Shown: positions 1,000 through 63,917 of the stretch, piece by piece
Numbering within the stretch: the first letter of the stretch is position 1
Layout: every line of letters starts with the position of its first letter
Source of the DNA: Eledone cirrhosa
Taxonomy: Eukaryota
Length of the DNA stretch: 64,000 nt
Assembly (NCBI GenBank): GCA_964016885.1
Contig: OZ024740.1
Span: forward strand, 403,682,001-403,746,000
Direction of reading: 5' to 3'
Notes under the pieces: generated by a model
The model's input: the letters and a program-made list of their open reading frames with translations, nothing else
Database searches by the model: none
What the model was told of the DNA's origin: nothing
Translations under genes and position numbers: made by a program

Positions 1000-2032
<1,033 letters not shown>

Positions 2033-6465: not shown

Positions 6466-7123
<658 letters not shown>

Positions 7124-15769: not shown

Positions 15770-15862
15770 TATTTATATGTATATATATATATATATGTAT
15801 ATTTATAATTTTCGTTAGGTTATTTATTAATATATATATGTATATATATAGGAACAAGTAAG

Positions 15863-15956
15863 ACCCCGACGGCTGAGCTCAAGCCGTTTCGACGGCTAAT
15901 TCTGGACTGAATGAAAATTTATTCTGGTATTTAAATAGCCGAGCTTATCAAGGGGT
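15863..15956 (-). ncRNA. Type I hammerhead, U3-A8 core variant
   Basis: Reverse complement of 18016-18109. Confidence 0.75.
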
Positions 15957-16340
15957 AATTCCATATATGGTCAAAGAGATAATCACCAGGATTGGTCACA
16001 TCACAAGTTAGTAGTAAATCTGTGATGGCAAATTGGTGGGGGAAGGGGTAGCTGAACCTGCCGGTAGGAGAAAAAGGGAGAGGGGGTGGAGTAGACCCAT
16101 TCGTGCGTTGGTAGTGCCGGCTACAGCTGGGTGTGAGGTCAAAGAGGATACTGGGGAGGGGGAGGGGGAGGAAGTCGAAACGGTAAGTAGAACAATGAAA
16201 GGTAAAACTATAAAAAGTACTGAGAGAGAAAAAAAATAAGCAGTCTGATTACTAAGACTTAAGTCTCTCGCTATTGCTAGGCTAAAGAAATACATAAATA
16301 AATAAACAAATAAGTGAATAAAAGAATAGATAAATAAATT

Positions 16341-16371
<31 letters not shown>

Positions 16372-17145
16372 TAATGAAGAATAAAAAATAAATAAAAATA
16401 AACTAGGTGGGACGGAATTAAAGGGACACTTATACGAGGTATAAATGCGTGTATCGTACGGTGACGGGTCAACAAAGGGGGGGGGGGGGCAAAATACTAA
16501 AGAAACTACCACGAAATAATAAAGGTTCCTACCCCAATCACAGGGCCAGCAACCACCCAGAGCAAGAAAGTAAACTAGTACGAGAATATAATTCAGGGTC
16601 CCGCAAAAAAATACTCGTGCTAACTCTAAGGGTACCGCCACGAAACAAAAAGTCTTATACAAGCTACATGAAAGATCGTACGAAGTAAAAGTAAAGAACG
16701 GAAAATTAATACAGAACCCCCCCCCCCCCCCCCCCCCCCCAAAAAAAGGGAAAAAGAGGAAAGAAATACTGGATAAACGAGAAATTAAAGCAAAGATGCC
16801 ACTAAGAAATATAGAAGGCACGGAAAAAAGGGACAGCGGTCGGAGAAGGGGGCAAGTATCCGAAGTCTAACACCTCTGCTATAAAAAGCGGAGTCAGCCA
16901 AATCTATCATAGAATAGGGGAGGGGTGGTGGTGCTGAAGCTACAAGGGACCGAGGGGCTACCTCGGGTGGGCGAGAAAAAGACGACGACAAAGAAAGGGA
17001 ACTGGGGTAGAAGGACTAGGGAGGGATGGGGAAGAAGGAAATATAGAGGAAGCGATAAAAGAATGTAAAAGAAGATCTTACGTCTCCATTGGCAAGCAGG
17101 GGTTACCCCTTACAAAATAGGCAAGTGGGGTGTTATAGCCCTAGT

Positions 17146-17850
17146 CTACCTCCCCGGGTCATTATGGGGTTTGAGGGCGAGGTAAGTCTTACGTAATCGG
17201 TGTTTACATGCAGTAACCAGTTCATCTTTCTTGTTTAGGAGTTGGTCCGTCGAAAACAGCATTTGTAAAGTTTCCTCCGAGCATAAATTGCACGGACGGC
17301 GTCCTCCCGTGTAAGAGTTGGCTCTGGACAGTAATTTCCAAGTGAGATCATAGTTGATGTTGTTGTCTTTGAGGTCCCATATGTGGCCCGAAAGTGTAGT
17401 GGCGTGACGCCGGGCCGGGTATCGGAAGGTATGTCTGTGTTGGTATAGCCGGGTCTTGAAGTCACATGCGGTTAATCCTATATAAGCTTTGTTGGAGGTG
17501 TCAGTGCTCACGTTGCACTGGTAGATCACATTACGGTATCTGCATCTGTTGTCGAGGGGGCAACTGGATCTATCAGGACAGTTGCACCTCCTGGTCGGCT
17601 CTCCACTGCTATTTAGGTTGTTTCTTCCATCGGGGTTGAGTTTTTTGTTGTTGGAGGAGACGATGTTTTGTGCGAAGTTAGGTGTAGTGCTGTAAGAGAG
17701 TTTGATGGTATTTTTGTTAATTATGTCGTGGTAGCGGTGTTGAGGTGGGAACTGTTTTTCAATGAGCCTAAAGAAAATTTTCCCGATGGGAGTTGTCACC
17801 TCGGCGTTGTGGGGAGGATTGAACCATGTTACATTGCGTGAGCGGCGGTG
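17146..17850 (-). CDS. Penelope C-terminal GIY-YIG endonuclease domain
   Basis: VTWFNPP, KLSYS, CNC...CPLDNRC, NVIYQC...YIGLT...FKTRLYQH, CNLCSEE, LLNKKDEL..CKH. Confidence 0.9.
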   Translation of the reverse strand, partial: HRRSRNVTWFNPPHNAEVTTPIGKIFFRLIEKQFPPQHRYHDIINKNTIKLSYSTTPNFAQNIVSSNNKKLNPDGRNNLNSSGEPTRRCNCPDRSSCPLDNRCRYRNVIYQCNVSTDTSNKAYIGLTACDFKTRLYQHRHTFRYPARRHATTLSGHIWDLKDNNINYDLTWKLLSRANSYTGGRRPCNLCSEETLQMLFSTDQLLNKKDELVTACKHRLRKTYLALKPHNDPGR

Positions 17851-18015
17851 TCGCCTGCTGGTTCCGCTAATGGGAGCTGGACAGTAGGATATTTCCTCCC
17901 GCTAATGGGAGCTGGACAGTAGGATATTTTCCCCACCAATTTGCCATCACAGATTTATTACTAACTTGTGATGTGACCAATCCTGGTGATTATCTCTTTG
18001 ACCATATATGGAATT

Positions 18016-18109
18016 ACCCCTTGATAAGCTCGGCTATTTAAATACCAGAATAAATTTTCATTCAGTCCAGAATTAGCCGTCGAAACGGCTTGAGCTCAGC
18101 CGTCGGGGT
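18016..18109 (+). ncRNA. Type I hammerhead, U3-A8 core variant
   Basis: ACCCC-TTGATAA-GCTCGGCTA...TAGCCGTC-GAAA-CGGCT TGAGCTC AGCCG-TC-GGGGT; GUC cleavage triplet. Confidence 0.75.
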
Positions 18110-18429
18110 CTTACTTGTTCCTGTGCGTTATGGTCCACCTGGTTCCTTACCACATTTCCTTCGTTATGTATATATATATATATATATATATGATTGGGGC
18201 GGGTGCATATTTTTATACATATATATATACATTTATGTGTGGATTTCCCGCATGTTAGATGCGATTCTGTAAGTGCTATACAGACTGCTTGATTCACATA
18301 TGGCTACGTCTCTCAGATGCATCATTTCACATCTGTTGCTAAGTTATACTAGGCATATTGCATTTAGTAGTAGTATTGGTGTGATGTATGCGTACATGAA
18401 TGCATAGATACATACATACATAAATATAT

Positions 18430-40511: not shown

Positions 40512-40607
40512 ACCCCGACGGCTGAGCTCAAGCCGTTTCGACGGCTAATTCTGGACTAAATGAACATTTTTATCCTGGTGTATGAAAAGGCGAGCTTCTC
40601 AGGAGGT
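40512..40607 (-). ncRNA. Family A hammerhead with a CTGAGAA core
   Basis: Inverted copy of 42515-42610 with extra mutations. Confidence 0.55.
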
Positions 40608-42514: not shown

Positions 42515-42610
42515 ACCCCCTGAGAAGCTCGGCTATTCATATACCAGGATAAAAATTTTCATTTAGTCCAGAATTAGCCGTCGAAACAGCTTGAGCTCAG
42601 CCGTCGGGGT
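42515..42610 (+). ncRNA. Family A hammerhead with a CTGAGAA core
   Basis: ACCCC-CTGAGAA-GCTCGGCTA...TAGCCGTC-GAAA-CAGCT TGAGCTC AGCCG-TC-GGGGT. Confidence 0.62.
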
Positions 42611-42700
42611 CCTACTCGTTCCTATTACCCACTCTACTACCCTAAGTATTGAGTACTTTGGTGCGTTATGGTCCACCTGGTTCCTTACCACATTTCCTTC

Positions 42701-55354: not shown

Positions 55355-55413
55355 TTCCGTTCTGATGATTGAAAGCAAAACCTTTTGCTTTAAGAAACCA
55401 CTGGTAAATGGAA
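55355..55413 (+). ncRNA. Canonical type I hammerhead ribozyme
   Basis: TTCCGTT-CTGATGA-TTGAAAGCAAAA CC TTTTGCTTTAA-GAAA-CC ACT GG-TA-AATGGAA. Confidence 0.87.
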
Positions 55414-55452
55414 TAATTGCCTTGTGTTGTTTATTACATAATAATAATAATA

Positions 55453-56510: not shown

Positions 56511-56570
56511 TTTCATTCTGATGATTGAAAGCAACATTTTTTGCTTTTAAGAAACCACTGGTAAATGAAA
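56511..56570 (+). ncRNA. Canonical type I hammerhead ribozyme
   Basis: TTTCATT-CTGATGA-TTGAAAGCAA...TTGCTTTTAA-GAAA-CC ACT GG-TA-AATGAAA. Confidence 0.87.
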
Positions 56571-56621
56571 TAATTGCCTTATGTTGTTTATTACATAACT
56601 ATATATATATATATATATATA

Positions 56622-63777: not shown

Positions 63778-63917
63778 ACGAAGGAAATGTGGTAAGGAAC
63801 CAGGTGGACCATAACGCACCAAAGTACTCAATACTTGAGGTAGTAGAGTGGGTAATAGGAACCAGTAAGACCCCGACAGCTGAGCTCAAGCCGTTTCGAC
63901 GGCTAATTCTGGACTAA

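What the first reader, a model, noticed from the sequence alone, without database searches (positions are those of the whole stretch)
15863..18109. U3-A8 covariant hammerhead with a long loop 2 in Penelope family A
Seen: the core reads TTGATAA instead of CTGANGA in both pLTRs, with intact stem I (ACCCC/GGGGT), stem III (CGGCT/AGCCG around a self-complementary TGAGCTCA) and a GUC site. Established: positions 3 and 8 form a tertiary Watson-Crick pair, so U3-A8 is compensatory. The sister copies at 40512 and 42515 read CTGAGAA (C3-A8 mismatch). Standard CUGANGA searches would miss this family.
Basis: partly seen in the sequence, partly recalled or inferred. Interest (0 to 1): 0.72.

Follow-up and report, generated by a model that had tools for sequence, protein, structure and literature searches.

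The report
Penelope hammerhead ribozyme, known U3-A8 variant
The two ends of a Penelope-like jumping gene carry a hammerhead-ribozyme motif that is predicted to cut itself; its unusual U3-A8 core pair is already published, and about half of the family's copies lack that pair, so it is a fairly ordinary new member of a known kind.

Summary
Window 15850-16044 (-) and 17928-18122 (+) are 99% complementary ends of one Penelope-like element (PLE). Each holds a 94-nt type I hammerhead motif with core UUGAUAA, GAAA, a GUC site, and helices I, II and III. Loop 2 is 37-39 nt. The predicted cut is after C18104 (C15868 on the - strand).

- Genome-wide, 2249 copies match the 5' core pattern: U3/A8 in 1108, C3/A8 in 1094, G8 in 13 (11 of those U3/G8).
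- So A8 is fixed, position 3 splits about 50:50, and there is no 3/8 covariation inside the family.
- An older sister family has C3 in 0 of 33 copies, so U3-A8 is ancestral. C3-A8 is a later loss of the pair, not an intermediate.
- Differences fixed between subfamilies avoid core and stems (0 of 43 columns against 11-13 of 56). N7 varies freely, as expected for a hammerhead.

Natural U3-A8 hammerheads were published in 2011, and in PLEs in 2014. This scan has also noted U3-A8 hammerheads on other DNA (148 notes, at least 12 genomes, including this genome), but not this sequence. Cleavage is untested because no RNA runs were listed. Verdict: new member of a known kind.

The parts
15850..18168 (.). 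One Penelope-like insertion in a (TA)n tract. It is a 5'-truncated copy on the - strand (15850-about 17900) joined head-to-head to a short inverted copy on the + strand (17928-18122), plus a tail.
   Evidence: Inverted repeat I1; (TA)n on both sides; the same -/+ pairing at variable spacing recurs genome-wide.
17928..18122 (+). Right pseudo-LTR arm (3' end of the short inverted copy), ending ...GTTCC.
   Evidence: 100% identical over 133 nt to all 40 genomic copies that were scored, out of 1502 candidates.
18016..18109 (+). Hammerhead motif, + copy. Helix I 18016-18020/18105-18109; core UUGAUAA 18021-18027 (U3 18021, N7 18025, A8 18026); helix II G18028-C18081 and 18031-18036/18074-18079; loop 2 18037-18073; GAAA 18082-18085; helix III 18085-18090/18098-18103 with loop UGAGCUC; predicted cut after C18104.
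15850..16044 (-). Left pseudo-LTR arm (3' end of the - strand copy).
15863..15956 (-). Hammerhead motif, - copy (U3 15951, A8 15946). Predicted cut after C15868, read on the - strand.
17146..17901 (-). Open frame of 251 codons: the C-terminal part of the element's protein (Cys-rich linker and a VIY...YIG endonuclease-type motif). The upstream RT part is missing through 5' truncation.
   Evidence: it aligns with the C-terminus of the 801-aa frame of full-length copy L032. Pfam gives no hit.
16045..17145 (-). About 1.1 kb of low-complexity 3' untranslated region (poly-G/poly-C runs, A-rich tracts) between the stop codon and the pseudo-LTR.
   Evidence: the same layout is seen in L032.
17864..17933 (+). 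35-nt tandem duplication at the junction of the two inverted copies.
   Evidence: family D3, 94% identity.
18123..18168 (+). Tail: a run-on into the element's 5' region with an internal deletion, present at this end only.
   Evidence: compared with window 42611-42695 and L031.
42515..42610 (+). Sister copy with the C3-A8 core CUGAGAA (subfamily F1); helix III carries a G-to-A change.
40512..40607 (-). Sister copy with the C3-A8 core CUGAGAA (subfamily F1); helix II has a mismatch and helix I a C-to-U change.

Best explanation
This is the type I hammerhead motif in the pseudo-LTR of a Penelope-like retrotransposon with a C-terminal endonuclease, of the already published U3-A8 core variant, and it is predicted to cleave its own transcript after C17 of the GUC site (after 18104 on the + strand, 15868 on the - strand). 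Shown directly: the motif; its place about 17 nt from the 3' end of the element; a stable helix III; a 37-39-nt loop 2; A8 fixed across the family; and U3 as the ancestral state. Inferred: the RNA folds into the three-way junction, U3 pairs with A8 in place of C3-G8, and the 2'-OH of C17 attacks its phosphate. By analogy with the Anolis Poseidon element this probably needs help from the element's own protein. Cleavage would process read-through or multimeric element transcripts, but is likely not needed for insertion itself. Every genomic copy spans the cut site, and the C3-A8 subfamily, which lacks the 3-8 pair, reached as many copies as the U3-A8 ones.
For: All hammerhead elements occur in the right order, and 0 of 200 simulated windows give a hit.

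Element context: full-length copies show pLTR-ORF-pLTR units of 3496 and 3631 nt. One has an 801-aa frame with YRDD and VIY..YIG motifs, and there are inverted 5'-truncated partners, a one-sided tail and (TA)n targets. The nearest Atlas clusters carry RVT_1 and GIY-YIG.

Lineage-level constraint: differences fixed between subfamilies F1-F4 fall in 0 of 43 core and stem columns against 11-13 of 56 loop columns (Fisher p 0.0005-0.002). N7 reads G, U or A in different subfamilies while U4 G5 A6 A8 A9 stay fixed. G12 A13 A14 are invariant in 73 distinct copies that were not selected on those bases.

One F4 copy has a compensatory C15.2G/G16.2C change, and some F4 copies have a U.G wobble in helix II.

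The hammerhead fold at -22.5 kcal/mol lies within 2.4 kcal/mol of the minimum-free-energy fold.

The U3-A8 subfamily F3 is young: all 40 scored copies are 100% identical over 133 nt, and one copy has an intact frame.

Literature: hammerheads are universal in canonical PLE pLTRs (PMC4209133 text; PMC8557442 passages). U3-A8 occurs in nature and 3/8 covariants are active in vitro (PMC3088659 section 8). In a Poseidon PLE the single changes C3G or G8C abolish cutting and the double change restores it; cutting is protein-assisted and dispensable for insertion in vitro (PMC11167929 passages).
Against: No cleavage data exist: no RNA run was listed, so nothing could be laid.

Rfam hammerhead models give no hit even at E<=10.

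The minimum-free-energy fold (-24.9 kcal/mol) is not the hammerhead. Helices II and III use the same words (CGGCU/AGCCG), so a local hairpin AGCCGU/ACGGCU can sequester GAAA.

Covariation support for the helices is weak: 95% of cells are paired but only 2 double-sided changes occur, each in a single copy.

The U-A pair at the top of helix III is unpaired in 21 of 73 copies, the count of F4 rows in that alignment.

Half of the copies (1094 of 2249) have a C3-A8 mismatch, which corresponds to the G8A single mutant and is expected to be strongly impaired. Yet that lineage proliferated.

Part of the invariance of the 5' core is built in, because copies were picked with a pattern that fixes TGA..AGCTCG.

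Pfam does not recognise the protein.
Confidence: 0.75

Rival explanations
1. The motif descends from a hammerhead but no longer works as a ribozyme. Its conserved stems and 3' terminal sequence are kept because the element's reverse transcriptase or endonuclease recognises them for target-primed reverse transcription, or because they lie in the internal promoter.
For: The 3' half alone occurs in 32,604 exact copies against 2249 5' cores, so the 3' hairpin and tail are what every insertion shares. All copies span the uncut site. The C3-A8 lineage spread as well as the U3-A8 lineages. Hammerhead mutants did not affect insertion of a Poseidon PLE in vitro (PMC11167929 passages). Naiad PLEs proliferate without a canonical hammerhead (PMC8557442 passages). 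Constraint on stems does not by itself prove catalysis.
Against: The free variation of N7 next to invariant U4 G5 A6 A8 A9, and invariant G12 A13 A14 in single-stranded positions, is what a catalytic hammerhead core predicts rather than a simple protein-binding hairpin. U3-A8 is kept in three of four subfamilies and in the older F4 family.
Confidence: 0.2
2. One reading: 3/8 covariation within this family, with C3-A8 as the uncompensated intermediate and U3 as the later compensating change.
For: Both states exist in the same family and differ by one transition. The U3/U7 subfamily F3 contains the most recent burst.
Against: G8 is virtually absent (13 of 2249 copies, 11 of them with U3), so nothing covaries. 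The outgroup F4 has C3 in 0 of 33 copies. On the tree rooted with F4, U3 copies (F2a) form the backbone and C3 copies form a derived clade with SH-aLRT support 92. Any tree in which F1 is one group needs only one U-to-C change.
Confidence: 0.07
3. Chance resemblance to a hammerhead in a repeat.
For: A loose descriptor also hits AT-rich junk in the window. Rfam is silent.
Against: 0 hits in 200 simulated windows with the strict descriptor. The location matches where PLE hammerheads are known to lie. The core and stems are conserved across subfamilies that differ by 31-34% in the pLTR.
Confidence: 0.03

Closest known systems
U3-A8 variant minimal hammerheads of Cercyon Penelope-like elements in Schistosoma mansoni (Cervera and De la Pena 2014, PMC4209133; text read)
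   Same: Type I hammerhead in the pseudo-LTR of a PLE. U3-A8 replaces C3-G8. Helix II is long and G10.1-C11.1 is kept. Loop 3 is palindromic. Thousands of mostly truncated or solo copies occur, often as close pairs on opposite strands.
   Different: Helix III here is stable (A-U plus 4-5 bp with a 7-9-nt loop) rather than absent or 1-2 bp, so a monomer could fold. Loop 2 is 37-39 nt. Helix II has a 2x1 internal loop after G10.1-C11.1 instead of one unpaired base before 10.1. About half of the copies have C3-A8.
Natural U3-A8 covariant hammerheads (Perreault et al. 2011, PMC3088659; section 8 read)
   Same: The same compensatory exchange of the C3-G8 tertiary pair. That paper states that 3/8 covariants had been shown to be active in vitro, citing Przybilski and Hammann 2007, which is not held in the library and was not read.
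   Different: Those examples are not described there as PLE-borne. No activity data exist for this sequence.
Hammerhead of the Poseidon PLE of Anolis carolinensis (PAc; PMC11167929; passages read)
   Same: A PLE pLTR hammerhead whose activity depends on the 3-8 pair. Insertions carry a tail, and the uncut RNA is the insertion substrate.
   Different: PAc has the canonical C3-G8 pair and overlaps the start of the ORF. Protein assistance and dispensability for insertion were measured there and are only inferred here.
Hammerheads of fungal and protist PLEs with a large helix III (Cervera and De la Pena 2014)
   Same: Stable helix III, predicted to be active as a monomer.
   Different: Those PLEs lack the endonuclease and are associated with telomeres. 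This element carries the endonuclease and lies in an animal-type genome.

Membership tests
Hammerhead ribozyme, type I | Three helices around a junction in the order I(5')-core-II-GAAA-III-UH-I(3'), with helix I open | tested here: met
   In 73 copies, 95% of pair cells are standard pairs, against 16-55% when the partners are slid.
Hammerhead ribozyme, type I | 5' core C3 U4 G5 A6 N7 G8 A9 | tested here: not met
   The core reads UUGAUAA. U4 G5 A6 A9 are present; positions 3 and 8 differ. A8 is present in at least 2202 of 2249 family copies.
Hammerhead ribozyme, type I | Watson-Crick pair between positions 3 and 8 (C-G or an isosteric replacement) | tested here: inconclusive
   Met as U-A in the two arms studied and in 1108 of 2249 copies. 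Not met (C-A) in 1094 of 2249 copies.
Hammerhead ribozyme, type I | 3' core G12 A13 A14, the A15.1-U16.1 pair and H17 (NUH site) | tested here: met
   GAAA and GUC are present. G12 A13 A14 are invariant in 73 copies, and A15.1-U16.1 is kept in 70 of 73.
Hammerhead ribozyme, type I | G10.1-C11.1 closing pair of helix II | tested here: met
   G-C in 69 of 73 copies and G-U in 3.
Hammerhead ribozyme, type I | Match to the curated covariance models (Rfam hammerhead families) | tested here: not met
   No hammerhead hit at the gathering score in the whole window, nor at E<=10 locally. Canonical-core PLE candidates in the same window are missed too.
Hammerhead ribozyme, type I | Site-specific self-cleavage giving 2',3'-cyclic phosphate and 5'-OH ends | not testable with these tools
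   No RNA run was listed for this DNA, and no reads were laid.
Penelope-like element with C-terminal GIY-YIG endonuclease | Single ORF with a reverse transcriptase followed by a GIY-YIG endonuclease | tested here: inconclusive
   An 801-aa frame has YRDD and, near the C-terminus, VIY...YIG after a Cys-rich linker (read by eye). Pfam and PDB sequence searches give nothing. The nearest Atlas clusters carry RVT_1, GIY-YIG, HTH_animal and DUF8422. The 396 homologues found are unnamed.
Penelope-like element with C-terminal GIY-YIG endonuclease | Pseudo-LTRs from partial tandems, an inverted 5'-truncated partner copy, and a one-sided tail | tested here: met
   Tandem units occur in L031 and L032. 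The inverted arms are shown and the tail. The layout is as described in PMC8557442 (passages).
Penelope-like element with C-terminal GIY-YIG endonuclease | Clade assignment by RT phylogeny (Neptune, Poseidon, Nematis or Hydra) | not tested
   No named reference RT sequences were available. The Cys-rich linker and the (TA)n target are only suggestive.
Minimal dimeric PLE hammerhead (min-HHR) | Helix III absent or 1-2 bp, so that activity needs a dimer | tested here: not met
   Helix III is A-U plus 4-5 bp. The helix III region could nevertheless dimerise (-32.1 kcal/mol against 2 x -7.8).

The most novel reading that the evidence does not exclude
The family is a natural mutagenesis experiment on the hammerhead 3-8 pair. 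An ancestral U3-A8 lineage gave rise to a C3-A8 lineage that lost the pair and still made about 1100 detectable copies, as many as its paired sisters. If the C3-A8 RNA does not cleave, this is in vivo evidence, on a genome scale, that hammerhead catalysis is dispensable for Penelope retrotransposition. The motif would then be kept for another role, such as protein binding, priming or dimerisation through the palindromic loop 3. If the C3-A8 RNA does cleave, a C-A+ wobble can replace the pair in a natural ribozyme.
Probability: 0.3. Interest if true: 0.55.

Novelty: new member of a known kind. Interest (0 to 1): 0.3.

Why it matters
The finding adds one abundant and partly young PLE family to the known U3-A8 class of hammerheads. 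It shows that curated RNA models miss PLE hammerheads in general. Its modest extra value is the clean 1:1 split between paired (U3-A8) and unpaired (C3-A8) sister subfamilies with otherwise identical ribozymes. That split gives ready-made constructs for asking whether PLE hammerhead cleavage matters for transposition, a question left open by Cervera and De la Pena 2014, Craig et al. 2021 and the 2024 in vitro work on Poseidon.

Tried and rejected
- RNA evidence for cutting: the look-up of sequencing runs listed no RNA holder. It returned four runs of one study, kept as contigs and of unknown kind. Contigs cannot show RNA ends.
- Rfam: no hammerhead hit at the gathering score or at E<=10.
- Pfam on the 251-aa and 801-aa frames: no family. 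PDB sequence search: none. The large protein search gave 396 unnamed homologues and no family name.
- Covariation statistics on 73 copies gave weak support only, because copies are near-identical and mostly decay neutrally.
- A comparison of private mutation rates in constrained and free columns between subfamilies was considered as a test of relaxed selection in the C3 lineage. It was dropped because numbers are small (4 against 12 changes in F3), the merged F2 group inflates loop differences, and CpG sites sit in the stems.
- An alternative register in which G7 acts as G8 with N7 deleted was rejected, because subfamilies F3 (UUGAUAA) and F4 (UUGAAAA) have no G there.
- The first dinucleotide-shuffle control timed out and was replaced by Markov-1 simulations.
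- Eight longer C3-type loci showed no intact 800-aa frame. The sample is too small and too differently chosen to conclude that the C3 lineage is dead.
- Przybilski and Hammann 2007 (PMC1986816) is not held. What is said about it comes from Perreault 2011 and PMC3884650.
- Lunse et al. 2017 on dimeric PLE hammerheads is only cited by held papers and was not read. Supplementary figures of Cervera 2014, which hold the U3-A8 structures, were not opened.
Full report
**1. What is in the sequence**

Window 15850-16044 and 17928-18122 are the two arms of a 195-nt inverted repeat, 99% complementary. Each arm ends outward in ...GTCGGGGTCTTACTTGTTCC next to a (TA)n tract.

Read 5' to 3' on its own strand, each arm contains these elements in order:
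- ACCCC (helix I, 5' strand)
- UUGAUAA (positions 3-9)
- G, then CU, then CGGCUA (helix II, 5' strand)
- 37 nt of loop
- UAGCCG, then U, then C (helix II, 3' strand)
- GAAA
- CGGCU, loop UGAGCUC, AGCCG (helix III)
- U, C17
- GGGGU (helix I, 3' strand)

On the + strand this is 18016-18109, with U3 at 18021, A8 at 18026 and C17 at 18104. On the - strand it is 15956 down to 15863, with C17 at 15868.

The half-motifs are not expected by chance: 0 matches in 100 shuffles. A strict structural descriptor found only these two arms in the window and nothing in 200 Markov-1 simulated windows.

**2. The element**

Between the arms, on the - strand, lies a 251-codon open frame (17901 to 17146). It is followed by about 1.1 kb of low-complexity sequence and then the left arm.

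Full-length relatives taken from the genome show direct pLTR-ORF-pLTR units of 3496 nt (L031) and 3631 nt (L032). L032 holds an 801-aa frame containing YRDD and, near the C-terminus, a Cys-rich stretch followed by VIY...YIG (motifs read by eye).

Several features match the layout described for Penelope-like elements (PMC8557442, passages; PMC4209133, text):
- The window copy is a 5'-truncated - strand copy joined head-to-head to a 195-nt inverted copy, with a 35-nt duplication at the junction.
- A one-sided tail at 18123-about 18168 runs into the element's 5' region.
- Pairs in -/+ orientation at variable spacing recur all over the genome.
- The element inserts into (TA)n.

The protein side is less clean. 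Pfam and PDB sequence searches give nothing. The nearest ESM Atlas clusters carry RVT_1, GIY-YIG, HTH_animal and DUF8422. The 396 homologues found are unnamed. I therefore call it a PLE with a C-terminal endonuclease, mainly on architecture. The clade was not determined.

**3. Positions 3 and 8 across the family**

The genome (3.0 Gb) holds 2249 matches to TTACCNCNTGANNAGCTCG, against 1 for the reversed control.

| State at positions 3/8 | Copies |
|---|---|
| U3/A8 | 1108 |
| C3/A8 | 1094 |
| G8 (11 U3/G8, 2 C3/G8) | 13 |
| Not resolved | 34 |

A8 is therefore fixed, position 3 is split almost evenly, and there is no covariation inside the family.

**4. Which state is older**

I took 60 copies, one per insertion, from the first 100 places listed on contig 1. 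They fall into five groups:

| Subfamily | Core | Copies | Median pairwise difference |
|---|---|---|---|
| F1 | CUGAGAA | 23 | 5.9% |
| F2a | UUGAGAA | 11 | 4.8% |
| F2b | UUGAGAA | 10 | 4.0% |
| F3 | UUGAUAA (the window's type) | 14 | 3.7% |
| F4 | UUGAAAA | 2 | differs from the rest by 31-34% |

A DNA search with an F4 copy brought 30 more loci. Among 33 distinct F4 cores, 26 read UUGAAAA, 31 have U3, 2 have A3 and none has C3 (seven cores were read by eye because helix I changes defeated the script).

A maximum-likelihood tree of 82 pLTR segments gave this picture (quick search, 195 columns):
- F4 separates from the rest with support 100.
- F2a copies sit on the backbone.
- F1 forms a clade with support 92.
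- F2b plus F3 form a clade with support 95.

With F4 as outgroup, one U-to-C change on the F1 stem explains the data. U3-A8 is ancestral, and C3-A8 is a secondary loss of the pair rather than the uncompensated intermediate.

F3 contains a very recent burst: all 40 scored copies, of 1502 candidates, are 100% identical over 133 nt. F3 also has at least one intact frame (L032). Eight longer F1 loci had none, but that sample is small.

**5. Is it a working hammerhead?**

Evidence for:
- Differences fixed between subfamilies fall in 0 of 43 core and stem columns but in 11-13 of 56 loop columns (Fisher p 0.0005-0.002).
- Inside the core the only freely varying position is N7 (G, U, A), as in hammerheads generally.
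- G12 A13 A14, on which the copies were not selected, are invariant in 73 distinct copies.
- One F4 copy has a compensatory C15.2G/G16.2C exchange, and several have a U.G wobble in helix II.
- Helix III is stable, so unlike the minimal dimeric PLE hammerheads a monomer could fold.
- The hammerhead fold (-22.5 kcal/mol) lies 2.4 kcal/mol above the minimum.

Evidence against or limiting:
- The minimum-free-energy fold is a competitor. Because helices II and III use the same words, the local hairpin AGCCGU/ACGGCU can bury GAAA.
- Helix covariation is weak, with 2 double-sided changes, each in a single copy.
- Part of the 5' core invariance is built into my selection pattern.
- The fifth helix III pair (U-A) is absent in F4.
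- Rfam does not recognise the motif. It also misses the C3-A8 copy and the CUGAUGA candidates of other PLE families in the window, so this says little.
- No RNA data were available.

**6. Mechanism**

Most likely (0.75), the transcript folds into the three-way junction, U3-A8 replaces the C3-G8 tertiary pair, and the RNA cuts after C17.

In the Anolis Poseidon PLE, the single changes C3G or G8C abolish cutting and the double change restores it. Cutting there needs the element's protein, and hammerhead mutants do not affect insertion in vitro (PMC11167929, passages). Three observations here fit that picture:
- Every genomic copy spans the cut site and runs 17 to about 80 nt beyond it, so the inserted template was uncut at that hammerhead.
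- The 3' half alone is present 32,604 times against 2249 5' cores.
- The C3-A8 lineage spread as well as its paired sisters.

Cleavage would thus process read-through or multimeric transcripts and is probably not required for insertion. The main rival (0.2) is that the motif is a hammerhead-derived protein-recognition or priming structure without catalysis.

**7. Comparison with what is known**

Perreault et al. 2011 state that C3 and G8 covary to U3 and A8 in several natural hammerheads, and that such covariants were already known to be active in vitro (PMC3088659, section 8).

Cervera and De la Pena 2014 found a U3-A8 variant in the Schistosoma Cercyon PLE and retrieved about 1300 hits with a U3-A8 descriptor (PMC4209133, text). 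A full-text search for 'hammerhead' with 'U3-A8' returned only that paper.

Notes of this scan also record U3-A8 hammerheads 148 times in at least 12 genomes. These include retrozyme-like arrays elsewhere in this genome, though none matches this sequence. Those notes were not tested here.

What differs from the published PLE cases:
- a stable helix III
- the 37-39-nt loop 2
- a 2x1 internal loop after G10.1-C11.1
- the even U3/C3 split

**8. Verdict**

This is a new member of a known kind, with interest 0.3. The most useful lead is the natural pair of sister subfamilies that differ at position 3. It offers a direct test of whether hammerhead catalysis matters for Penelope transposition.

Noticed in passing
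window 1816-1964 and 6666-6789; also 63845-63897: Mini-palindromes made of two inverted 3' ends of the same element family (about 50-70 nt each), inserted in (TA)n and without the 5' half of the hammerhead. Genome-wide, the 32-nt 3' half has 32,604 exact matches against 2249 for the 5' core, and many lie in -/+ pairs 40-70 nt apart. The commonest insertion product of this family is therefore a tiny back-to-back pair of 3' ends.
   Followed up: partly
window 55362-55420, 56518-56577 (+); 42926 region (-); 33179, 45645, 46393 (+); 33026 (-): Candidate minimal hammerheads with a canonical CUGAUGA/CUGACGA/CUGAAGA core, a long helix II and a short palindromic helix III, as in published PLE min-HHRs. 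They appear to belong to other repeat families. They were found with a loose descriptor only, and Rfam gives no hammerhead hit at E<=10 for the two regions tested.
   Followed up: partly
window 18031-18035/18075-18079 and 18086-18090/18098-18102 (same on the - arm): Helices II and III use the same words (CGGCU/AGCCG). The RNA can therefore switch to a fold in which II-3' pairs with III-5' (hairpin AGCCGU-CGAA-ACGGCU, burying GAAA) and II-5' pairs with III-3'. This alternative is the predicted minimum-free-energy fold and is conserved in the old F4 family. It may be an on/off switch for the ribozyme.
   Followed up: partly
window 18091-18098 (UGAGCUCA in loop 3): The six-base palindrome GAGCUC sits in a 7-nt hairpin loop. 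The helix III region is predicted to homodimerise strongly (-32.1 kcal/mol against 2 x -7.8). A kissing-loop or extended dimer of element RNAs is conceivable. In F4 the loop reads UGAGCUCU and keeps the GAGCUC palindrome.
   Followed up: no
window 16045-17145 (-): The 1.1-kb stretch between the stop codon and the pLTR is low-complexity: G10-12 and C20+ runs, A-rich and AT tracts. It is present in full-length copies too, and its role is unknown.
   Followed up: no
L093-L122 (G000, several contigs): The older sister family F4 has core UUGAAAA, a different tail (GGGGTCCTGAACCTTTTCC) and the same helices. Copies are 81-93% identical to the query. A subset has GUUCGGCU or GUUUGGCU at the base of helix II, a change in the internal loop and a U.G wobble.
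   Followed up: partly
window 17864-17933: A 35-nt tandem duplication (94% identical) lies exactly at the junction between the - strand copy and the short inverted + strand copy. It may be a footprint of template switching.
   Followed up: no
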